The position numbers and the translations under genes were made by a program. From Candidatus Nomurabacteria bacterium (lineage in GTDB: Bacteria > Patescibacteriota > Minisyncoccia > Phycocordibacterales > UBA9973): a DNA stretch of 64,000 bases. Below, piece after piece: positions 1 through 43,781 of the stretch. Every line of letters starts with the position of its first letter. Positions within the stretch are counted from its first letter, which is position 1. The stretch is taken from assembly GCA_023267215.1 (NCBI GenBank), contig JAHFNS010000001.1, forward strand, positions 98,736-162,735, given 5' to 3'. The notes below the pieces were generated by a model. That model had not been told where the DNA came from. It saw nothing but the letters and a program-made list of their open reading frames with translations, and made no database searches.

Positions 1-518
1 AAATTTTTGAGCTTTTAGAAGAGGGGAAGAATCTAGCATTAGTTTCAGATGCTGGTACTCCGACTATCTCTGACCCTGGAGCAATGCTTATTTCTAAAAT
101 AAAAGAAAAGTTTTCCCAGAAGACGGTCTTCGGGGAAGAACCCCGAAGACCGTCTTCTGGGGTAGAAGTTATTCCAATTCCTGGAGCTTCTGCAGTTATT
201 GCTGCACTTTCTGCTTCTGGACTTCCAACGCATGAATTCACATTTCTAGGATTTCTTCCACACAAAAAAGGAAGAGAAACTTTATTTAAAGAAATTGCTG
301 AATCAAAACGCACAATGGTTTTCTATGAATCCCCACATCGCATTTTAAAAACATTAGAATCCTTAAATAAATTTTGTCCAAATAAAAAAGTTTGTATTGC
401 TCGCGAAATCACTAAGATTTATGAAGAGTTTAAAACAGGTACACCACAAGAACTTTTAGAATATTTAAAAAAAAATCCCGTAAAACAAAAAGGGGAGTTT
501 ACAGTATTAGTTTCTTAA
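1..518 (+). CDS. rsmI: 16S rRNA 2'-O-methyltransferase RsmI, C-terminal part (5' end lies outside window)
   Basis: Frame 3 is open from the window edge. Translation gives LEEGKNLALVSDAGTPTISDPG ... VIPIPGASAV ... FYESPHR, typical RsmI motifs. Track ORF 84..518 is the internal-Met tail. Carries an in-frame 48-bp palindrome at 115..162. Confidence 0.85.
   Translation, partial: IFELLEEGKNLALVSDAGTPTISDPGAMLISKIKEKFSQKTVFGEEPRRPSSGVEVIPIPGASAVIAALSASGLPTHEFTFLGFLPHKKGRETLFKEIAESKRTMVFYESPHRILKTLESLNKFCPNKKVCIAREITKIYEEFKTGTPQELLEYLKKNPVKQKGEFTVLVS
115..162. repeat. family A GC-rich palindromic element, copy 1 (in rsmI, in-frame)
   Basis: cccagaagacggtcttcgggg-aagaa-ccccgaagaccgtcttctggg. Perfect 21-bp inverted arms. 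Confidence 0.8.
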
Positions 519-5944: not shown

Positions 5945-6003
5945 CCTCACCTAGAGCCCCTCTCCTTAATAAGGAGAGGGTGGCCAAAGGTCGGGTGAAG
6001 TGT
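5945..6003. repeat. family B palindromic element, copy 1 (intergenic rseP / Cys-rich gene)
   Basis: gacctcacc-tagag-cccctctcctt-aat-aaggagaggg-tgg-ccaaaggt-cgggtgaagtg. Core has perfect 10-bp arms around aat. Confidence 0.7.
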
Positions 6004-6007
6004 ATTT

Positions 6008-7726
6008 ATGAAATCAGAAACTAAAACATGTCAGAATTGCAAACAAGACTTCACTATCGAGCCAGAAGATTTTAATTTTTATGAAAAAATAAAAGTTCCA
6101 CCACCGACATTTTGTCCAGAATGTAGAAGACAAAGACGTTTTGTTTGGCGAAATGAACGGGTGTTATATCGTCGTACTTGTGGTTTATGTAATAAAAATG
6201 TTATTGCAATATATCACGAATCTTCACCTTTTCCTGTGTATTGTCGAGAATGTTGGTATGGAGATAAATGGGATCCTACTTCTTATGGTAGAGAGTATGA
6301 TATGTCTAAATCATTTTTTGAACAATATAAAGAATTATCTAATGTTGTTCCAAGATTGGCTATGTGGCAAAGAAATTGTATAGATTCAGATTACTCAAAT
6401 ATGGCTGGAGAATCAAAAAATGTTTATTTATCTGTTTCGGTTGTAAAAAATTCAGAAAATATTTTTTATTCAAAATCCGTAGATAAATCAAAAGACATTG
6501 TAGATTGTTTAAATATTATAAATGGATCTGAAAGTTTATATGAAAATGTCGAAGCACAGAGTAATTATAATTCACAATATCTTTTATTATGTAGAAGTTG
6601 TATGGATTCTTATTATTTGGTTGATTGCGTAAATTGTAGTAACTGTTTTTTGTCTTATAATTTAAGGAATAAACAATTTTGTATAAACAACAAAGAATAT
6701 AAAAAGGAAGATTATTTTAGAGAGGTAGAAAAGTTCAATTTAAAAAGTAGAGCTTCTCGTCAAGTTTTATTAAAAAGATTTGATGAGATAAAAAAGAAAT
6801 CCATTTATCGTTTTGGAAATATTAATAGGTGTGTGAATGTTACAGGCAACAATCTTTTAAATGTTAAAAATGGTAAAAGTTGTTTTGAAATTTATAACAT
6901 AGAAAATGTAAAATATTGCTATAGAGCTTTTGATATTAAAGATTCTATGGATTTTGACTATGGCGGATGGTCAGAATTACTTTATGAATATACGACAGGT
7001 GCGTTACATGATTACAATGTTAAGTTTAGTTATTCCGCAATGGATTCTGTGAGAAATGCTGATTATACAGAATCTTGTAGAAATTGTTCTAATATTTTTG
7101 GTTGTATTTCTCTCGTAAACACAGAAAATACAATATTAAATAAGGTTTATCCCGAAGAGGAATACAAAAAACTTCGTGAAGAAATTATCAAACAAATGAA
7201 TGAAGTACCATATATTGATAAAGTAGGTAGGGTTTATAAATATGGCGAATTTTTCCCAATAGAGTTATCACCCTGGGATTATAATGAGACTTTGGCCCAA
7301 GAATTTTTTCCTATTACAGAAGATACTGCGAAAGAAAAAGGATATCCATGGCGTCATTCAAACATAAAAAAATTTGAAATTACAATTACTTCAGAAAAAA
7401 TTTCTGATAATATAGATGACGTCAATGAAAATATTTTAAAAGAAGTTTTAGGATGTGCCCATAAGGGGAATTGTAGTCATCAATGTAATGTTGCTTTTCG
7501 TATAACGGACTATGAATTTAAATTCTATAAAAAACATAACATACCGTTACCTATTTTGTGTTCAAATTGTAGACATTATGAGAGATTCAAAGTTATGCCA
7601 GCATTAGATTTGTGGCATAGAAAATGTATGAAAGAGGGTTGTGATAATGAATTTGAGACAGCTTATGCTCCCGACAGGCCGGAGATTGTTTATTGTGAGA
7701 GATGTTATCAACAGGAAGTGTATTAA
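6008..7726 (+). CDS. large Cys-rich (multi zinc-ribbon) protein of unknown function with duplicated N/C-terminal module
   Basis: 572 aa with many CxxC pairs. N-terminal CQNCKQDFTIEPEDFNFYEKIKVPPPTFCPECRRQRRF recurs C-terminally as CNVAFRITDYEFKFYKKHNIPLPILCSNCRHYERF. Sits between rseP and mraY. Confidence 0.7.
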   Translation: MKSETKTCQNCKQDFTIEPEDFNFYEKIKVPPPTFCPECRRQRRFVWRNERVLYRRTCGLCNKNVIAIYHESSPFPVYCRECWYGDKWDPTSYGREYDMSKSFFEQYKELSNVVPRLAMWQRNCIDSDYSNMAGESKNVYLSVSVVKNSENIFYSKSVDKSKDIVDCLNIINGSESLYENVEAQSNYNSQYLLLCRSCMDSYYLVDCVNCSNCFLSYNLRNKQFCINNKEYKKEDYFREVEKFNLKSRASRQVLLKRFDEIKKKSIYRFGNINRCVNVTGNNLLNVKNGKSCFEIYNIENVKYCYRAFDIKDSMDFDYGGWSELLYEYTTGALHDYNVKFSYSAMDSVRNADYTESCRNCSNIFGCISLVNTENTILNKVYPEEEYKKLREEIIKQMNEVPYIDKVGRVYKYGEFFPIELSPWDYNETLAQEFFPITEDTAKEKGYPWRHSNIKKFEITITSEKISDNIDDVNENILKEVLGCAHKGNCSHQCNVAFRITDYEFKFYKKHNIPLPILCSNCRHYERFKVMPALDLWHRKCMKEGCDNEFETAYAPDRPEIVYCERCYQQEVY

Positions 7727-7729
7727 ATT

Positions 7730-7770
7730 CCCCTAAGCTGGGCTTAGGGGACAGAAGCCCAGCTTAGGGG
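7730..7770. repeat. family C GC-rich nested palindrome (intergenic Cys-rich gene / mraY)
   Basis: cccctaagc-tgg-gcttagggg-acag-aagcccagcttagggg. The left 21-mer is itself palindromic, and its reverse complement recurs 3'. Confidence 0.65.
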
Positions 7771-7798
7771 AAGTCTAAAAATATGTTAATATAACTAT

Positions 7799-34373: not shown

Positions 34374-34592
34374 TTATCTTTTTACTTTTTTAGATTTAAC
34401 AACACCATTTTTGAACCAAAAACCAACAGTACTTTTACCTATTTTTAATTTATCTGCTATCTGACAAAAACTAAAACCTTTTTTTCTAAGCATTGCTGCT
34501 TTTTCTTTAATTTTTAAACTATGTGAAATCATATATATTAACAATATACTTTTATATTTTAATAATGTGAAGTAATGTAAATAGAAGTACAA
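34374..34592 (-). CDS. small HTH protein, paralog of the N-terminus of 33631..34326
   Basis: KEKAAMLRKKGFSFCQIADKLKIGKSTVGFWFKNG aligns with the HTH of the neighbouring gene. Confidence 0.4.
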   Translation of the reverse strand: MYFYLHYFTLLKYKSILLIYMISHSLKIKEKAAMLRKKGFSFCQIADKLKIGKSTVGFWFKNGVVKSKKVKR

Positions 34593-35350
34593 GCATTAAT
34601 ATTATTATTTTGACATAAAGTAATCGTACTAGAACCAGCAGAAAGAGCTGTGATTATAGCTGATGTATTGTTATTGTTGTAGTAATTATTATTTATTGAA
34701 GTAGAACATAATTGCCCTGTGATAGAACTATATAATGTATTTGTAGTACATCCTGGAATATATGAAGAATATCCTAAATTGTTCGTTCCACTACATAATT
34801 GTCCAGTAGTAATACTATACAAATAACCTGAAGCGCAACCTGGAATAGTAGAATTGGAAGAAGTATATGATACAGAAGCAACACTTGGATTGGTATTTCC
34901 TGATACATATAATCCAGTTGAAGTAGCAGATGAAATAGTTGCTGAGTTTCCAACAGAAAGAGAAAGGCCAGATAAATTAAAACCAGAAGTATTGGTAGAG
35001 TTGATACCTACACCTGTCACATAAACATAAATAGTACCACAAGAACTCGCATCATTGGTCTGGCAAACAGTTATTGTGTCATTACCACTAGTGTTACCGT
35101 AAATCGAAATAGTATTACCACTTACATATGCTGTGGCTATGCTTTGATTATAATTACTAGAAATATAATAACTCATATAGTTATAGTTGTAACTATAACT
35201 ACTGTTATATATAGTGACAGTAGACGTCTGTCCGACAGTAAGAGAAAGACTTGTCTGACTCATGGAAAGTGTAGAAGCATATACACTATTACTAAAAGCT
35301 AAAAAAGCACTAAACACAAGACACATTGCGACTAATTTTTTTATTTTCAT
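34559..35350 (-). CDS. secreted Ser/Thr/Asn/Tyr-rich low-complexity surface protein
   Basis: Signal peptide MKIKKLVAMCLVFSAFLAFSNSVYAS. YNYNY and repeated ITGQLCS motifs. Ends ...TLCQNNNINACTSIYITSHY. Confidence 0.55.
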   Translation of the reverse strand: MKIKKLVAMCLVFSAFLAFSNSVYASTLSMSQTSLSLTVGQTSTVTIYNSSYSYNYNYMSYYISSNYNQSIATAYVSGNTISIYGNTSGNDTITVCQTNDASSCGTIYVYVTGVGINSTNTSGFNLSGLSLSVGNSATISSATSTGLYVSGNTNPSVASVSYTSSNSTIPGCASGYLYSITTGQLCSGTNNLGYSSYIPGCTTNTLYSSITGQLCSTSINNNYYNNNNTSAIITALSAGSSTITLCQNNNINACTSIYITSHY

Positions 35351-36454: not shown

Positions 36455-37462
36455 TCAAATTTTTTTTAAAAAATCACGAATTATTTTTTCTACTTCTTTA
36501 GAATTTTCTGTCTCCATTAATTTTGCACGTAATTCTTTCGCACCAGGAAAATCATTTACATACGCTTTGAAATGTTTTTTCATGACAGCAAAACTTTTAT
36601 GTTTTGGTATCGCAAGCTCTTTATCAAAAAGTTGAGTGTGTTCCATGAGAACTTCTAGTTTTTCTTCTACCCTCTCCTTTTCAAGGAGAGGGGTTGGGGG
36701 TGAGGTGAATACCCAAGGATTTCCAAAAACTCCCCTACCTATCATTATTCCATCACAACCATACTTTTCTGCTTTCTCTTCCGCATCTTTTAAATCTTTA
36801 ACATCACCATTGCCAATGAGCAAAATATCTTTGCCACTTTTTTTAATAAGCTCTTTTATTTTTTTAATGTAATCCCAATTTGCAGGAACGAGAGATAATT
36901 CTTTTGTTGTTCGTAAATGAATCGTCAAAGCAGAAATATCTTCCTTTAATAATTCTGGTATCCAATTATCAATATCTTCCCTATTGAAACCAACTCTCGT
37001 TTTGACAGACACTGGGATATGAAGCCCTGCAGATTTTATTCCAGCATGAGCAGCCTGTATTATTTTTCTAGCAAGTTGTGGTGTCTTTATCAAACCCGAG
37101 CCAGCACCTTGAGCAACGACAGATTTGTCTGGACAACCCATATTTATATCTATTCCATCAAAACCGAGACTAGCAATATAACTACAAGCTTTTTCCATAT
37201 TCTCCGGGTTAGCACCGAAAACTTGAGCGATGATAGGTCTCTCAGCTTCAGAATATTTTAAAATGTGAGAAAGTTTCTTTTTGGCGAGTTTATTACACAA
37301 GCCATCAGCCGCCACAAACTCTGTCCAGAAAACGACGCTGTTTCTATTTTCTCTGTTCTTACTATATTTCGCCAAGATACGACGAAAAGCAATGTCAGTG
37401 ACATCCGACATCGGTGCAAGGCAGAAAAATGGTTTTTTAAGTTTTCTCCAGAAATTTTGCAT
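36455..37462 (-). CDS. tRNA-dihydrouridine synthase (DusB-like)
   Basis: FCLAPMSDVTDIAFRRI, MIGRGVFGNPWVF, TIM-barrel FMN motifs. Carries an in-frame palindromic element (TSPPTPLLEKERV) right after GNPWVF. Confidence 0.85.
   Translation of the reverse strand: MQNFWRKLKKPFFCLAPMSDVTDIAFRRILAKYSKNRENRNSVVFWTEFVAADGLCNKLAKKKLSHILKYSEAERPIIAQVFGANPENMEKACSYIASLGFDGIDINMGCPDKSVVAQGAGSGLIKTPQLARKIIQAAHAGIKSAGLHIPVSVKTRVGFNREDIDNWIPELLKEDISALTIHLRTTKELSLVPANWDYIKKIKELIKKSGKDILLIGNGDVKDLKDAEEKAEKYGCDGIMIGRGVFGNPWVFTSPPTPLLEKERVEEKLEVLMEHTQLFDKELAIPKHKSFAVMKKHFKAYVNDFPGAKELRAKLMETENSKEVEKIIRDFLKKI
36655..36725. repeat. family B palindromic element, copy 3 (inside dus, in-frame)
   Basis: ttcacctcaccccc-aa-cccctctcctt-ttc-aaggagaggg-tagaggaaaaa. 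Read in-frame as FTSPPTPLLEKERVEE on the minus strand. Confidence 0.7.
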
Positions 37463-40938: not shown

Positions 40939-40992
40939 ACAAAGTGCCGAAAGGCTTCGAGAAACCCCGCTTCTGCGGGGTTTCGATTTTCT
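40939..40992 (+). ncRNA. candidate ~55-nt small RNA (GNRA-tetraloop hairpin + terminator hairpin)
   Basis: gccGAAAggc hairpin then aaaccccgc-ttct-gcggggttt followed by tcgattttc. Lies between the promoter above and the convergent mazF-like stop codon. Putative only. Confidence 0.3.
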
Positions 40993-41507: not shown

Positions 41508-43781
41508 ATGAAATTACTCATTGTTGAATCACCATCAAAAGCAAAGACTATAGAAAAATATTTAGAAGGCGCATACACAGTGCGTGCTTCTATTGGACAT
41601 ATTCGTGATTTACCTAAATCAAACAAACAAGCGATAGATATCGAAGGTGGTTTCATTCCACATTATGAAATTTCAAAAGGTAAAGAAAAAGTTGTTCATG
41701 AACTTCAATCACTCGGAGAAAAAGCCACAGAGATATTGTTAGCGACAGACCCCGACCGTGAAGGAGAAGCTATAGCTTGGCATATAGAAGAACTTTTAAA
41801 GAAAGATAAAAAAATAAAAGCTAAAGCGAAACGTGTGACATTCCATGAAATAACAAAGGAAGCCGTAGAAGAAGCATTGAAACATCCTCGAAACATAGAC
41901 ACTGCTTTGAGAAAAGCTCAAGAAGCAAGACGTGTCCTCGACAGACTCGTAGGATATGATCTGTCTGGTTTGATATGGAAAAAAGTACGCTATGGACTCT
42001 CTGCAGGACGTGTTCAATCCCCTGCACTCCGCATAATAATGGAACGCGAAAGAGAAATCCGTGCTTTTGTGCCAGAGAAATATTGGAGAATATTAGGACT
42101 TTTTGAAACACCCAAAAAAGGAAAACTTACTTTAAATTGTTCTATTGAGCCAAGAGATGAAAAAGTTGTAGAAAAAATAATGGAAGAAGGCAATAGTAAA
42201 GATTGGTTTGTAACTGATGTCAAAGAGGGAGAGCAAAAGAGAGTTCCTCGTGCTCCGTTCACTACTTCCACATTACAACAGACAGCGAGCTCTCGCCTTG
42301 GATATTCCCCTTCTAGGACAATGCAAATAGCTCAAAAACTTTATGAAGCTGGACATATCACATACATGCGTACAGATAGTACAAATTTATCTCTTGTCGC
42401 TCAATCACAGATAGTTTCTATGATTGAAAAAAAATATGGGAAAAATTTTGCACAAGCAAGAATTTATAAAACAAAATCAAAAAATGCCCAAGAAGCACAC
42501 GAAGCTATTCGCCCAACTCATATAGAAAATATGTTGGCTGGCACAGATGAACAACAAAGACTTTATAGATTAATCTGGGAGCGTGCTGTTTCTTCACAAA
42601 TGGCAGATGCGAAATTATTGAAGACAAAAATAAGTGCGAATATAGCTTACAGCCCCAAAGACGGTCTTCGGGGAGCTCCCCGAAGACCGTCTTTGGGGCA
42701 ATTCGAATTCCCAGACTTCACAGCTGTCGGTTCCAGAATTCTTTTCTCTGGTTGGCTAGAAGTTGATAGAGATAGTGTCGGAGAAGATTTTGAATTACCA
42801 GAAGTAAAGAAGGGAGACAAATTAAAATTGTTAAATCTCGTTAATGAAGAAAAATTTACCGAACCACCAAATAGATATAGTGAAGCAGGCCTCATTAAAG
42901 AACTCGAGGCACGAGACATAGGTAGACCTTCTACTTATGCTTCCATAATGAAAACATTGGAAGACAGAGAATATGTCAGGAAAGAAGGCAAAACTCTATT
43001 CCCTACAGACGTCGGTGAAGTCGTGTCAGACTTCTTAGAAAATAATTTTGCAAATTATATCTCTGATACATTCACAGCTGAGATGGAAGACGAGCTAGAT
43101 GAAATATCTCGTGGTGAACGTGAATACGAAAAAACATTAAAAGATTTCTATGGACCATTCTTAAAAGAAATAAAAATAAAAGAAAAGTTAGAAAAAGCGA
43201 CAAATTTAGGAGAAGCACCAGAAGGTATAGTGTGTCCAAAATGTGGCAGTAAAATGATAGTGAAGCTTTCTCGTGCAGGAAAATTCTATTCTTGTATTAA
43301 ATATCCAGATTGTGACGGAGCCCTTATGATAGACGGTACAGAATTGAAAGGTCCAAAAGAAACTGGTGAGATGTGTCCCCAATGTGGACATAAGAGTGGA
43401 GGAAAAAAAGGAAATGGGGGTGGAGGAAAATTGATCATACGCGAGAGACGTGATGGCACTGGCACATTCATTTCTTGTTCTCGTTATCCAAAATGTAAGT
43501 TCATAAAAAAAGACGAAGCAGAAGAAGCAAAAAAAAGAACTGGGGTTATCTGTCCAACTTGCAAAAAAGGAGATATTTCTGAGCGCAAAGGAAGATTTGG
43601 AGTATTTTATTCCTGTTCAAACTATCCTGATTGTAAATTTGCAATTAAAGCAAAACCCACTGGTAAAACATGTGATAAATGTGGATCTTTAATGATGCAA
43701 GGTACAAAAACTATCCCTGATAGATGCAGTAATAATACATGTTTAAATTATCGACCTGATAAATTAAATAAAATTAAATAA
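41508..43781 (+). CDS. topA: DNA topoisomerase I with C-terminal zinc-ribbon repeats
   Basis: MKLLIVESPSKAKTIEKYLEG...GHIRDLP (TOPRIM), active-site region HITYMRTDS, four CxxC...CxxC zinc ribbons at the C-terminus. Carries an in-frame 46-bp palindrome at 42653..42698. Confidence 0.9.
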   Translation: MKLLIVESPSKAKTIEKYLEGAYTVRASIGHIRDLPKSNKQAIDIEGGFIPHYEISKGKEKVVHELQSLGEKATEILLATDPDREGEAIAWHIEELLKKDKKIKAKAKRVTFHEITKEAVEEALKHPRNIDTALRKAQEARRVLDRLVGYDLSGLIWKKVRYGLSAGRVQSPALRIIMEREREIRAFVPEKYWRILGLFETPKKGKLTLNCSIEPRDEKVVEKIMEEGNSKDWFVTDVKEGEQKRVPRAPFTTSTLQQTASSRLGYSPSRTMQIAQKLYEAGHITYMRTDSTNLSLVAQSQIVSMIEKKYGKNFAQARIYKTKSKNAQEAHEAIRPTHIENMLAGTDEQQRLYRLIWERAVSSQMADAKLLKTKISANIAYSPKDGLRGAPRRPSLGQFEFPDFTAVGSRILFSGWLEVDRDSVGEDFELPEVKKGDKLKLLNLVNEEKFTEPPNRYSEAGLIKELEARDIGRPSTYASIMKTLEDREYVRKEGKTLFPTDVGEVVSDFLENNFANYISDTFTAEMEDELDEISRGEREYEKTLKDFYGPFLKEIKIKEKLEKATNLGEAPEGIVCPKCGSKMIVKLSRAGKFYSCIKYPDCDGALMIDGTELKGPKETGEMCPQCGHKSGGKKGNGGGGKLIIRERRDGTGTFISCSRYPKCKFIKKDEAEEAKKRTGVICPTCKKGDISERKGRFGVFYSCSNYPDCKFAIKAKPTGKTCDKCGSLMMQGTKTIPDRCSNNTCLNYRPDKLNKIK
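42653..42698. repeat. family A GC-rich palindromic element, copy 2 (in topA, in-frame)
   Basis: ccccaaagacggtcttcgggg-agct-ccccgaagaccgtctttgggg. Perfect 21-bp arms, near-identical to copy 1. Confidence 0.8.

What the first reader, a model, noticed from the sequence alone, without database searches (positions are those of the whole stretch)
6008..7726. Large Cys-rich protein with a duplicated zinc-ribbon module embedded among cell-division and cell-wall genes
The 572-aa protein has more than 30 cysteines, mostly in CxxC pairs. Its N-terminal about 35 residues (CQNCKQDFTIEPEDFNFYEKIKVPPPTFCPECRRQRRF) are mirrored near the C-terminus (CNVAFRITDYEFKFYKKHNIPLPILCSNCRHYERF). This points to an internal duplication of an F-x-I-T-x-x-E/D-F-x-F-Y-x-K-x-x-x-P-x-P-x-x-C-x-x-C-R module. 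I do not recognise a characterised family. It sits between rseP and mraY-ftsW-murG, so a role at the envelope or divisome is conceivable. The dense metal-binding architecture is unusual for that context.
Basis: partly seen in the sequence, partly recalled or inferred. Interest (0 to 1): 0.6.

Follow-up and report, generated by a model that had tools for sequence, protein, structure and literature searches.

The report
Four-zinc beta-solenoid protein family of Parcubacteria
The gene encodes a soluble, zinc-studded protein with an undescribed mirror-like domain layout. It belongs to a very large, uncharacterised family found only in Parcubacteria-type ultra-small bacteria, often as rows of diverged copies, and its position next to cell-wall genes appears to be incidental.

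Summary
ORF 6008-7726 (+) encodes a soluble 572-aa protein with 31 Cys, 5.4% against 0.6% in the other ORFs of the window.

The N/C duplication is not about 35 aa. It is an 80-aa double zinc-finger module (hhalign E=8e-27). The centre is also an internal duplication of a roughly 140-aa Cys/Ser/Asn-ladder beta-solenoid domain (E=2.6e-37). The layout is Zn2 – solenoid – solenoid – acidic connector – Zn2.

An AlphaFold2 model from 148 homologues is confident (pLDDT 92.8, pTM 0.92). It has no significant PDB neighbour.

The zinc fingers resemble the function-unknown Pfam family zf_Tbcl, and zf_Tbcl_2/LIM. Residues 100-482 have no Pfam coverage.

The family is very large: more than 5,400 clusters at 90% identity and 1,370 clusters at 50% identity. 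Every informative source name points to Parcubacteria/Paceibacteria. Copies commonly sit in tandem rows of diverged paralogues, 1 to 8 per locus.

The rseP/mraY neighbourhood recurs in only 4 of 81 loci, so an envelope or divisome role is not supported.

My best guess, with low confidence, is a zinc-stabilised cytoplasmic recognition scaffold. Its conserved ends would dock a common partner and its variable solenoid faces would give each paralogue its specificity.

The parts
6008..7726 (+). Complete ORF: 572 aa, 68 kDa, pI 6.5, soluble. Member of the Parcubacteria-restricted family.
   Evidence: The identical protein P0001 is on public contigs.
6008..6271 (+). N-terminal double zinc-finger module (aa 1-88, net charge +5). 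Finger N1 uses C8, C11, C36, C39 and is zf_Tbcl-like. Finger N2 uses C58, C61, C79, C82 and is LIM/zf_Tbcl_2-like.
   Evidence: Ligand conservation is 97-99% for N1 and 69-88% for N2. zf_Tbcl hit E=0.0026. pLDDT 95-98. A BFVD 'Putative zinc-ribbon domain protein' matches at rmsd 0.6 A over 40 aa.
6272..6376 (+). Connector (aa 89-123) with conserved D98, F103, Q106 and invariant P115.
6377..6793 (+). Solenoid domain M1 (aa 124-262): short beta rungs, the conserved cap C207xxC210xxC213...NLRNK..I.NK.Y.KE.Y, then helices.
   Evidence: hhalign M1 vs M2 E=2.6e-37. DSSP strands at 153-226 and helices at 233-264. No Pfam hit.
6794..7207 (+). Solenoid domain M2 (aa 263-400), homologous to M1, with cap C357..FGC366..ILNK.Y..EEY and helix 383-399.
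7208..7447 (+). Acidic connector L (aa 401-480, net charge -6). It carries the most conserved non-zinc motif of the family, YGEFFPxExSPxxYNETxA (aa 411-430; G413 invariant).
   Evidence: pLDDT 96-98 for residues 401-450.
7448..7723 (+). C-terminal double zinc-finger module (aa 481-572). Finger C1 uses C483, C493, C518, C521; the first knuckle is expanded from CxxC to Cx9C in this subfamily, with extra C489, H485 and H491. Finger C2 uses C540, C545, C563, C566.
   Evidence: Module alignment A3. hhalign to the N-module. The module profile hits the CRP1 LIM domain at E=1.6e-4. zf_Tbcl_2 and LIM hits in homologues.
5958..5980 (+). GC-rich perfect hairpin (CCCTCTCCTT-AAT-AAGGAGAGGG) in the 63-nt spacer between rseP and the ORF. 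A second copy of the same stem lies at 36670-36692.
   Evidence: Fold of 5945-6007: -26.7 kcal/mol, z=-3.6..
7728..7772 (+). Long GC-rich hairpin directly after the stop codon, in the 72-nt spacer before mraY. It is a possible terminator or insulator, but has no T-run.
   Evidence: Fold of 7727-7798: -35.5 kcal/mol, z=-6.4. Not called by the T-run terminator scan.

Best explanation
The gene encodes a soluble cytoplasmic member of a very large paralogous family restricted to Parcubacteria/Paceibacteria. Its architecture is mirror-like: double zinc-finger module, beta-solenoid M1, beta-solenoid M2, acidic connector, double zinc-finger module.

Shown:
- Both the terminal modules and the two central domains are internal duplications.
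- Sixteen Cys sit in four conserved Cys4 motifs. The conservation pattern implies four structural zinc sites.
- The remaining Cys lie in the solenoids, at positions that are freely replaced by small or aliphatic residues in homologues.
- The chain is predicted with high confidence to fold as one compact particle.
- The family occurs as 1 to 8 diverged copies per locus.
- The cell-wall and division neighbourhood is not conserved.

Inferred, as my most likely mechanism:
- The protein is a rigid, zinc-stabilised recognition scaffold or adaptor.
- Its conserved parts are the two basic terminal modules, the two solenoid caps and the YGEFFP..SP..YNET connector. These would form a common core and dock one shared partner, either a protein or a nucleic acid.
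- Its variable parts are the N-terminal rungs of each solenoid and the inter-domain helices. These would give each paralogue its own ligand specificity.

The partner is unknown.

I put about 0.9 on the architecture and family statements and about 0.3 on the adaptor mechanism. The overall figure given is a compromise.
For: Duplications.

Zinc-ligand conservation:
- N1 97-99%.
- N2 69-88%.
- C1 91-99%.
- C2 97-99%.

Solenoid Cys are dispensable. Cys counts in residues 118-400 range from 9 to 31 across members. The window protein has V139, L177, N186, S216, G289 and T375 where 46-66% of homologues have Cys.

Structure: AF2 pLDDT 92.8, pTM 0.92.

Solubility: no membrane segment, GRAVY -0.68.

Finger type:
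- zf_Tbcl in 21 of 33 modules, zf_Tbcl_2 in 16 of 33, LIM in 6 of 33.
- The module profile matches the CRP1 LIM domain at E=1.6e-4.

Charge pattern across the family: Zn modules +3.4 and +3.8; M1 -3.1; M2 -1.2; connector L -6.1.

Conservation pattern:
- Lowest entropy at 31-40, 361-380, 411-430 and 551-570.
- Highest entropy at 141-200, 241-270, 301-360 and 451-460.

Family size and range:
- More than 5,465 hits in the 90%-identity cluster database.
- 1,370 representatives of 50%-identity clusters at E<1e-30.
- Source names are Nomura-, Giovannoni-, Jorgensen-, Staskawicz-, Sung-, Lipton- and Gribaldobacteria, Paceibacterota and Minisyncoccia.

Tandem paralogues:
- 170 copies, including partial ORFs at contig ends, in 81 loci.
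- 153 of them are at least 500 aa. Adjacent copies among these are 30-61% identical, median 43%.
- The subfamily order recurs between genomes.
Against: - No experiment, no characterised homologue and no conserved gene neighbourhood supports any particular partner or ligand.
- The invariant Arg after the second knuckle (R40, R522) and R44/R526 could be purely structural, for example salt bridges to D21/E503, rather than ligand-binding.
- Whole-length conservation is high: 57-76% identity among the 120 best database hits. That is more typical of enzymes or core machinery than of adaptors.
- A nearly invariant motif sits in the connector and could be a catalytic or cofactor site.
- I could not inspect model coordinates, so Zn-site geometry, surface exposure and domain packing are not verified.
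Confidence: 0.4

Rival explanations
1. Client adaptor, co-factor or cargo of the Hsp70 system or of a soluble VirD4/TrwB-like P-loop ATPase. The family would work with the chaperone machinery, or with a coupling-protein-like ATPase, in proteostasis or in hand-over of substrates for export to the host.
For: - In the 81 loci the commonest non-self neighbour is a soluble TrwB_AAD_bind/T4SS-DNA_transf/TraG-D_C ATPase. It lies within 3 genes in 19 of 81 loci, in several different arrangements.
- In one recurring arrangement the family sits inside the ancestral heat-shock operon: grpE-[family]n-(PaaX-like)-dnaK-...-ATPase-dnaJ. GrpE lies within 3 genes in 8 loci and DnaJ in 7. DnaK accounts for most of the 13 loci that hit the mixed DnaK/MreB cluster.
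- Zinc-finger partners of Hsp70 exist elsewhere, namely the DnaJ Cys-rich domain and Hep1/Zim17. This point is from my own knowledge.
Against: - The association is absent from most loci, from the window itself (no ATPase homologue in 64 kb) and from three diverged members examined separately.
- It may reflect inherited synteny in one sub-lineage.
- There is no CxxCxGxG DnaJ-type motif and no similarity to Hep1.
- The ATPase has no membrane anchor, so it is not a canonical coupling protein.
- Zinc-locked folds are poor secretion substrates.
Confidence: 0.15
2. An enzyme whose active site lies in the solenoid or connector region, for example a left-handed-beta-helix-type acyltransferase or a gamma-carbonic-anhydrase-like protein, with the zinc modules as substrate-binding appendages.
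For: - The best, though non-significant, Foldseek PDB hits are all left-handed beta-helix proteins: LpxD, GlmU, LpxA and gamma-carbonic anhydrases.
- Whole-length conservation is very high.
- The connector carries a nearly invariant motif.
Against: - Foldseek E is at least 0.019, TM at most 0.27 and rmsd 11-20 A.
- No Hexapep or any other Pfam hit for residues 100-482, even in eight diverse members.
- No His is conserved at 90% or more among the 148 homologues, although His is the catalytic or metal residue of those enzymes.
- Paralogue arrays of up to 8 copies are unusual for a housekeeping enzyme.
Confidence: 0.12
3. One reading: an envelope or divisome accessory factor acting with RseP, MraY, FtsW and MurG.
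For: - Position in the window between rseP and mraY-ftsW-murG, same strand.
- The same arrangement occurs in L017. The upstream priA-mreB-holB-frr-rseP part also occurs in L035 and L038.
Against: - Only 4-5 of 81 loci share any of these neighbours.
- Most copies sit in unrelated housekeeping contexts.
- The protein is soluble, with no membrane segment or signal peptide.
- The gene is bracketed by two strong hairpins, which argues against tight co-transcription.
Confidence: 0.05
4. A metal-handling protein: a zinc store or buffer, or a thiol redox sensor, that exploits its many cysteines.
For: - 31 Cys.
- A CutA1 divalent-ion-tolerance gene lies within 3 genes in 6 of 81 loci.
Against: - The conserved Cys form classical structural Cys4 knuckle pairs.
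- The non-ligand Cys are not conserved; members have 9 to 31 in the core.
- A 68-kDa folded scaffold holding about 4 Zn is an inefficient store.
Confidence: 0.04
5. A gene of a mobile element or defence island: a transposon-borne nuclease such as TnpB/IscB, a homing endonuclease or an anti-phage protein. This would explain the variable contexts, tandem copies and flanking palindromes.
For: - Variable genomic contexts and tandem arrays.
- GC-rich palindromes on both sides of the gene, one belonging to a repeated element.
Against: - No PADLOC hit beyond noise (E=0.026).
- No relative in GenBank phages or in IMG/VR.
- No nuclease, transposase or RuvC domain.
- Orthologues keep synteny and 57-76% identity among the 120 closest database homologues, from differently named lineages. 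That is the opposite of mobile-element behaviour.
Confidence: 0.03

Closest known systems
Pfam zf_Tbcl (PF13451, 'Probable treble clef domain'; function unknown)
   Same: The first finger of each module has the same pattern: CxxC, then about 24 residues containing F-x-[IFL]-x3-[DE]-x2-F-Y, then P-x-P-x2-C-P-x-C-R followed by a helix.
- 21 of 33 family modules hit the model, best E=4.4e-9.
- Viral 'Putative zinc-ribbon domain' proteins superpose at 0.6 A over 40 residues with 32-36% identity.
   Different: - The window's own N-module scores 18.1 bits, below the 24-bit gathering cutoff.
- zf_Tbcl is a 48-position single-finger model. Here it is always fused to a second finger, it is present twice per chain, and it flanks about 400 residues that have no Pfam model.
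- The Pfam family itself has no known function.
LIM domain (PF00412; e.g. avian CRP1, PDB 1b8t/1ctl) and Pfam zf_Tbcl_2 (PF23477)
   Same: The second finger of each module ('LW/Y-x-R-x-C-x2-C ... Y ... VYC-x2-CY') aligns with the second LIM finger.
- The module profile matches CRP1 at E=1.6e-4.
- LIM passes its Pfam cutoff in homologue P0112 (25.1 against 22.9 bits).
- zf_Tbcl_2 hits 16 of 33 modules.
- LIM is a two-zinc protein-binding module.
   Different: - In LIM the two zinc sites are contiguous: the last ligand of site 1 and the first ligand of site 2 are 2 residues apart, and site 1 is CCHC.
- Here the sites are 18 residues apart, and site 1 pairs the CPxC knuckle with an upstream CxxC, not a downstream one.
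- This is a resemblance of one finger, not LIM membership.
Left-handed beta-helix proteins (LpxA/LpxD, GlmU C-terminal domain, gamma-carbonic anhydrase)
   Same: - The central domains are predicted stacks of short beta rungs with a 3-residue sequence periodicity (C/S/N-x-x).
- These proteins are the top Foldseek PDB hits.
   Different: - The hits are not significant (E at least 0.019, TM at most 0.27).
- No Hexapep Pfam signal and no conserved catalytic His.
- Each solenoid ends in a family-specific cap plus helix.
- The chain is predicted as a single compact two-solenoid particle, not the trimer typical of those enzymes (trimer state not tested).
Cys-ladder beta-helices such as Tenebrio antifreeze protein (PDB 1ezg), and CxxC-repeat phage proteins (Campylobacter phage vB_CjeM_WX1 gp155; phrog_15341)
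   Same: Regularly spaced Cys run along a small beta-solenoid. Cys-rich family members, such as P0231 with 30 Cys in the core, give weak hits: phrog_15341 E=5e-8, the phage ORF at E=5e-3 by tblastn and 3.6e-7 with my M-domain HMM, and TmAFP at E=5.4.
   Different: - The hits are weak and largely compositional.
- TmAFP is secreted and disulfide-bonded, with 12-residue coils.
- The window protein is cytoplasmic and has replaced most ladder Cys with other residues.
'Parcubacteria-enriched hypothetical protein families' of Meheust et al. 2019 (PMC6744442)
   Same: [quoted passage not shown] This family fits that class: lineage-restricted, widespread and unannotated.
   Different: The paper does not describe this family. 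It has no mention of zinc or cysteine, and 12 of its 20 families are predicted to be membrane proteins. I could not check whether this family is among the other eight.

Membership tests
Pfam zf_Tbcl (PF13451) | HMM score at or above the gathering cutoff (24 bits) | tested here: inconclusive
   The window's N-module scores 18.1 bits, E=0.0026, below the cutoff. Across the family, 21 of 33 modules match at E<0.1, best E=4.4e-9. Whole-protein scans of homologues gave E=7e-4 to 0.018.
Pfam zf_Tbcl (PF13451) | Two CxxC knuckles bracketing a short beta/alpha unit, with a helix starting at the second knuckle (treble-clef topology) | tested here: met
   - C8xxC11 and C36xxC39.
- The model has strands 4-7 and 14-17, helix 19-28 and helix 37-46 at pLDDT above 95.
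- rmsd 0.6 A over 40-41 residues to two viral 'Putative zinc-ribbon domain' proteins.
LIM domain (PF00412) | Consensus C-x2-C-x16-23-H-x2-C-x2-C-x2-C-x16-21-C-x2-(C/H/D): two contiguous zinc sites separated by 2 residues | tested here: not met
   Sites are 18 residues apart (C39 to C58; C521 to C540). Site 1 is formed with an upstream knuckle. Only the second finger aligns with LIM.
Left-handed beta-helix acyltransferase / gamma-carbonic anhydrase superfamily | Hexapeptide-repeat (PF00132) signal and a significant structural match | tested here: not met
   No Hexapep hit in the window protein or in 18 homologue sequences. Foldseek E at least 0.019, TM at most 0.27.
Left-handed beta-helix acyltransferase / gamma-carbonic anhydrase superfamily | Conserved catalytic or metal-binding histidines | tested here: not met
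   No His appears among the invariant or at-least-90%-conserved columns of the 148-sequence alignment.
DnaJ-type Cys-rich domain / Hsp70 zinc-finger co-factors | Four CxxCxGxG repeats (DnaJ Cys-rich domain) | tested here: not met
   No CxxCxGxG in the sequence. The neighbouring DnaJ homologues in other loci carry it, but this family does not.
   RseP 4 of 81, MraY 4 of 81, FtsW 5 of 81 loci. No membrane segment or signal peptide.
Anti-phage defence or phage-borne protein | Match to a PADLOC or PHROG model, or presence on phage or viral contigs | tested here: not met
   - PADLOC: best E=0.026.
- PHROG: only function-unknown families, weakly.
- No tblastn hit in 50,697 phage records.
- None in IMG/VR.
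Four structural Zn(Cys)4 sites | Metal actually bound, with tetrahedral geometry | not testable with these tools
   This is inferred from motif spacing and conservation only.

The most novel reading that the evidence does not exclude
The family is a lineage-defining innovation of Parcubacteria/Paceibacteria. It would be a new class of cytoplasmic, four-zinc, double-solenoid recognition proteins, expanded into arrays of up to eight diverged paralogues in genomes of under 1 Mb. Each paralogue would read a different macromolecular target, either RNA/DNA or client proteins, and hand it to a common partner. In some lineages that partner could be the soluble VirD4/TrwB-like ATPase or the Hsp70 system encoded beside it. 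On this reading the family is a previously unrecognised core system of these episymbiotic bacteria, with a fold combination that has no counterpart in the PDB.
Probability: 0.25. Interest if true: 0.75.

Novelty: new variant of a known kind. Interest (0 to 1): 0.55.

Why it matters
Parcubacteria are among the most abundant and least understood bacteria. Their tiny genomes are thought to keep only what is needed.

A soluble 570-aa protein that is conserved at 35-76% identity among the homologues listed here is unlikely to be dispensable, especially when it is kept in up to eight diverged copies per locus (about 14 kb of a genome under 1 Mb) and is absent from all other named lineages. Yet it has no annotation, no Pfam coverage for two-thirds of its length and no structural neighbour in the PDB.

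Defining its architecture gives a concrete target for structural and interaction studies: two duplicated two-zinc modules, two duplicated solenoids and one nearly invariant connector motif. It also gives a candidate marker family for the lineage. Finally, it removes a misleading guilt-by-association link to cell division.

Tried and rejected
- **Whole-protein sequence searches.** Pfam, NCBIfam and PDB sequence searches gave nothing significant. A PDB search with the 148-sequence profile gave only a LIM-like tail and noise.
- **First AF2 run.** With 20 close homologues it was poor (pLDDT 59; residues 120-210 and 264-348 unmodelled). It was replaced by the 148-sequence run.
- **Defence and phage searches.**
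  - PADLOC gave nothing beyond noise.
  - PHROGs gave only weak hits to function-unknown families.
  - GenBank phages by tblastn gave nothing.
  - IMG/VR gave nothing.
  - The one phage hit obtained with a Cys-rich homologue is a CxxC low-complexity repeat protein of a Campylobacter phage. I treat it as compositional.
- **Central region on its own.** A Pfam scan of residues 100-482 from eight diverse members gave nothing.
- **Other architectures.** I searched for other proteins carrying the Zn module, the M domain or the connector. This used HMMs I built, run against all six-frame ORFs of the window and 85 loci (1.1 Mb). Only family members and their truncated or split copies were found.
- **Second copy in the window.** None was found by tblastn.
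- **Neighbourhood-based function.** No context is conserved family-wide.
- **Mobile-element reading.** Rejected: no transposase or nuclease domain, and synteny is conserved.
- **Recoding in L058.** I considered whether the split copy in L058 reflects stop-codon recoding. It is a single in-frame TAA, so a pseudogene or a sequencing error.
- **Literature.** No paper mentions PF13451. Meheust et al. 2019 list Parcubacteria-enriched hypothetical families but do not describe this one. Two other keyword searches returned nothing relevant to this family.
Full report
**1. The observation**

The ORF listing and translation confirm an uninterrupted ORF at 6008..7726 (+) encoding 572 aa. It has 31 Cys and 9 CxxC motifs.

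In the window (31% GC) the other 62 long ORFs average 0.61% Cys. This ORF has 5.4% (binomial P about 1.5e-19) and is the most Cys-rich ORF of the window.

The protein is 68 kDa, pI 6.5, GRAVY -0.68. Its most hydrophobic 19-residue window scores 0.86, against 2.71 for the RseP next door. It therefore has no signal peptide or membrane segment.

The gene order is:
- PriA-like (opposite strand), MreB, DNA pol III delta', RRF and Peptidase_M50 (RseP) upstream.
- This ORF.
- MraY (Glycos_transf_4), FtsW, MurG, and further on GltX and an M23 peptidase.

**2. The internal duplication is real and larger than described**

Residues 11-83 align with 493-567 at 32% identity (pairwise blastp E=2e-12). With profiles cut from a 148-sequence family alignment, the N-terminal and C-terminal modules match at probability 99.7%, E=8e-27, over 81 columns.

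The unit is therefore a two-zinc module of about 80 residues. The ligand spacing is identical in both copies: CxxC-24-CxxC-18-CxxC-17-CxxC.

The module alignment (A3) shows how the C-terminal copy changed. Diverged members still have a plain CxxC as its first knuckle. The window's subfamily has expanded this to C483-x9-C493, with extra C489, H485 and H491.

Ligand conservation across 148 homologues:

| Zinc site | Ligands | Conservation |
|---|---|---|
| N1 | C8, C11, C36, C39 | 97-99% |
| N2 | C58, C61, C79, C82 | 69-88% (lost in some paralogues) |
| C1 | C483, C493, C518, C521 | 91-99% |
| C2 | C540, C545, C563, C566 | 97-99% |

**3.

Residues 118-256 (M1) and 269-399 (M2) are homologous (hhalign probability 99.9%, E=2.6e-37, 129 columns). 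Each ends in a conserved cap:
- M1: DCxNCxNCFxCxNLRNKxYxIxNKxYSKEEY.
- M2: CxxxxNxFGCxGLxxKxYCILNKQYSKEEY.

The architecture is mirror-like:

| Segment | Residues |
|---|---|
| ZnN (N-terminal zinc module) | 1-88 |
| Connector | 89-123 |
| M1 | 124-262 |
| M2 | 263-400 |
| Acidic connector L | 401-480 |
| ZnC (C-terminal zinc module) | 481-572 |

**4. Structure**

A first AlphaFold2 run with 20 close homologues failed in the centre (pLDDT 59).

With 148 homologues at 34-90% identity (alignment A2) the model is confident: mean pLDDT 92.8, pTM 0.92, no segment below 50.
- The Zn modules are beta-hairpin knuckles followed by helices, which is treble-clef-like.
- M1 and M2 are stacks of short strands followed by helices (233-264 and 383-399).
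- L is mostly extended, with short helices, yet is modelled at pLDDT 96-98 for residues 401-450. That implies it packs on the other domains.

Foldseek against the PDB finds nothing below E=0.019. The weak top hits are all left-handed beta-helix proteins (LpxD, GlmU, LpxA, gamma-carbonic anhydrases), with TM at most 0.27 and rmsd 11-20 A.

Against viral models (BFVD), only 40-residue 'Putative zinc-ribbon domain' proteins match. They match well, at rmsd 0.6 A and 32-36% identity.

**5. What the pieces are**

The module sequences scanned one by one hit Pfam families as follows:

| Pfam family | Modules hit (of 33) | Best E-value |
|---|---|---|
| zf_Tbcl (PF13451, 'Probable treble clef domain') | 21 | 4.4e-9 |
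| zf_Tbcl_2 (PF23477) | 16 | 3.9e-6 |
| LIM (PF00412) | 6 | 9.1e-5 |

- The window's own N-module is sub-threshold for zf_Tbcl (18.1 against 24 bits).
- The module profile finds the LIM domain of avian CRP1 at E=1.6e-4. The alignment covers the second knuckle of finger 1 and all of finger 2.
- Each module is therefore a zf_Tbcl-type finger fused to a LIM-finger-like or zf_Tbcl_2-type finger.
- It is not a LIM domain. The two sites are 18 residues apart rather than 2, and site 1 uses an upstream knuckle.
- Both Pfam 'Tbcl' families are function-unknown, and no paper in the library mentions PF13451.

Residues 100-482 have no Pfam hit, in the window protein or in eight diverse members. NCBIfam has none.

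The Cys in the solenoids are not conserved metal ligands:
- The Cys count in this region ranges from 9 to 31 among members.
- The window protein carries V139, L177, N186, S216, G289 and T375 where 46-66% of homologues have Cys.
- This is the behaviour of small residues lining a solenoid core.

C210, C213 and C366 are an exception, at 92-95% conserved. Together with C198 and C207 they could form a fifth site. I could not test this without coordinates.

No His is conserved at 90% or more. This argues against the catalytic chemistry of left-handed beta-helix acyltransferases and gamma-carbonic anhydrases.

**6. The family**

The best 120 are 57-100% identical over the full length and all are 'hypothetical'.
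- The exhaustive search of representatives of 50%-identity clusters found 3,639 hits. Of these, 1,370 are at E<=1e-30, and most of the 150 listed are full length.
- A second search from a 34%-identical, Cys-rich member (P0231) gave the same picture.
- Every informative source name is a Parcubacteria-type lineage. These are Nomura-, Giovannoni-, Jorgensen-, Staskawicz-, Sung-, Lipton- and Gribaldobacteria, Paceibacterota, Minisyncoccia and RAAC4_OD1.
- Many TPA assemblies carry a generic 'uncultured Candidatus Saccharibacteria' label, and one MAG is labelled Burkholderiales. I regard both as unreliable, because the neighbours are typical of CPR genomes. I could not verify GTDB taxonomy.
- Meheust et al. 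2019 report 20 Parcubacteria-enriched families that are 'primarily hypothetical proteins' (PMC6744442). This family fits that class but is not described there.

**7. Genomic context**

I analysed the 80 best loci plus the window.

The main result is that the family forms tandem arrays:
- There are 170 copies in 81 loci, counting partial ORFs at contig ends.
- 34 loci have one copy, 22 have two, 13 have three, 10 have four, one has five and one (L039) has eight.
- Nearly all copies within an array are on the same strand; the one exception is in L022.
- Among the 153 copies of at least 500 aa, adjacent copies are 30-61% identical, median 43%.
- Subfamilies recur in the same order in different genomes, for example types 1-20-9 in L002 and L003.
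- The arrays are therefore old, retained paralogues, not recent amplifications.

Non-self neighbours are heterogeneous:

| Neighbour within 3 genes | Loci (of 81) |
|---|---|
| Soluble TrwB/VirD4/TraG-like P-loop ATPase (Pfam) | 19 |
| GrpE | 8 |
| DnaJ | 7 |
| Mixed DnaK/MreB cluster (12 of its 22 members are DnaK-length) | 13 |
| RseP | 4 |
| MraY | 4 |
| FtsW | 5 |

- The arrangement rpsD-rpoA-rplQ-rplM-rpsI-grpE-[family]n-(PaaX-like)-dnaK-...-ATPase-dnaJ recurs in one group of genomes.
- Three diverged members looked up separately sit next to NUDIX, a trypsin-like protease plus ComM, and TsaE/ArsR/PolA.
- The window has no second copy and no ATPase homologue.
- HMMs I built for the Zn module, the M domain and L, run against 1.1 Mb of six-frame ORFs, found only family members and truncated or split copies. 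In this sample these domains do not occur in other architectures.
- The family is absent from GenBank phages, IMG/VR and defence models.

**8. Local signals**

The 63-nt and 72-nt spacers on either side of the ORF each contain a strong GC-rich hairpin:
- Upstream: -26.7 kcal/mol, z=-3.6.
- Downstream: -35.5 kcal/mol, z=-6.4.

Neither has a T-run, and the consensus terminator scan does not call them. Only six such perfect GC-rich hairpins exist in the 64-kb window. The upstream one shares its stem with a copy at 36670.

They may insulate the gene transcriptionally from rseP and mraY, or they may simply be small palindromic repeat elements.

**9. Interpretation**

*Shown*
- Soluble protein.
- Four conserved Cys4 motifs in two duplicated terminal modules.
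- Two duplicated solenoid domains.
- A confident single-particle model with no PDB neighbour.
- A very large lineage-restricted family with retained paralogue arrays.
- No conserved envelope context.

*Inferred from the conservation and charge pattern*
- The most conserved blocks are the knuckles (31-40, 551-570), the two solenoid caps (201-235, 361-390) and the connector motif YGEFFPxExSPxxYNETxA (411-430).
- The most variable blocks are the N-terminal solenoid rungs (141-200, 301-360), the inter-domain helices (241-270) and 451-460.
- The terminal modules are basic on average (+3.4 and +3.8). The core and connector are acidic (-3.1, -1.2 and -6.1).

The simplest reading is a rigid zinc-stabilised scaffold. 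A conserved core and conserved ends would serve a common partner, and variable solenoid faces would differ between paralogues. That makes it an adaptor or recognition protein. Whether the ligand is protein (the LIM-like analogy) or nucleic acid (basic treble-clef helices) is open.

I give this mechanism about 0.3.

| Reading | Probability |
|---|---|
| Recognition scaffold or adaptor (best explanation) | about 0.3 |
| Partner or cargo of the Hsp70 system or the VirD4-like ATPase | 0.15 |
| Enzyme | 0.12 |
| Envelope or divisome factor | 0.05 |
| Metal store or redox sensor | 0.04 |
| Mobile element or defence | 0.03 |

**10. Verdict**

The duplication and the lack of a characterised family hold. 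The envelope link does not.
- The building blocks are known kinds: treble-clef and LIM-like zinc fingers, and a beta-solenoid.
- The architecture and the family are uncharacterised, and two-thirds of the chain has no model in Pfam or neighbour in the PDB. I rate it a new variant of known kinds rather than a categorically new system, because no function is established.
- Interest is moderate to high for CPR biology and structural genomics.

Noticed in passing
window 5958-5980, 36670-36692, 124-152, 42662-42689, 7730-7772, 40961-40984: There are only six perfect GC-rich hairpins (stem of at least 9 bp) in this 31%-GC window, and they fall into repeated families.
- CCCTCTCCTT/AAGGAGAGGG occurs at 5958 and 36670, with a shared CCTCACC flank.
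- CGGTCTTCGGGG/CCCCGAAGACCG, with arms extending to about 21 bp, occurs at 124 and 42662.
- Three of the six lie inside long ORFs: 84..518 (+), 36455..37462 (-) and 41508..43781 (+).
This resembles REP/RPE-like palindromic elements that also insert into coding sequence.
   Followed up: partly
L039 (CAZGST010000001.1), whole 15.7-kb locus: Eight family copies (512-610 aa, six different subfamilies) lie within 15.7 kb. This is the largest array seen. L079 has five copies interleaved with other genes.
   Followed up: partly
L002, L004, L005, L014, L043, L047, L051, L062 and others (cluster 'c2', about 558 aa): A soluble TrwB_AAD_bind/T4SS-DNA_transf/TraG-D_C (VirD4-like) P-loop ATPase without a membrane anchor lies between dnaK and dnaJ in many Parcubacteria, sometimes in two copies. 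It is the commonest non-self neighbour of the family, in 19 of 81 loci. Its role is unknown.
   Followed up: partly
L002-L005, L014, L033, L040, L043, L046, L077 (cluster 'c4', about 172 aa, opposite strand): A small PaaX_M (Cas2-like central domain) protein is encoded divergently just upstream of dnaK, where hrcA would be expected in a Gram-positive-type heat-shock operon.
   Followed up: no
L081 2902-3462 (Campylobacter phage vB_CjeM_WX1, UZV40580.1): This is a 186-aa hypothetical phage protein made almost entirely of CxxCxxC repeats (C.NC.NC.DC...). It matches the M-domain HMM weakly (3.6e-7). It is probably a Cys-ladder solenoid, and the similarity may be compositional.
   Followed up: partly
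L058 498-2336: A family copy is interrupted by a single in-frame TAA at codon 253. This is a pseudogene or a sequencing error, not UGA recoding. Short family fragments also occur in L074 (7260-7469) and L046 (1579-1785).
   Followed up: yes
L023 (JAMPXW010000002.1, 267,744-bp contig) and P0012: A MAG labelled 'Burkholderiales bacterium' carries three full-length family copies plus a fragment at the locus edge. They sit beside the VirD4-like ATPase, DnaJ and CysS in a Parcubacteria-typical arrangement. The taxonomic label looks wrong.
   Followed up: no
window 34559-35350 (-) and 41508-43781 (+): These are the next most Cys-rich ORFs of the window: 263 aa with 9 Cys (3.4%) and 757 aa with 17 Cys (2.2%). 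Neither was examined.
   Followed up: no
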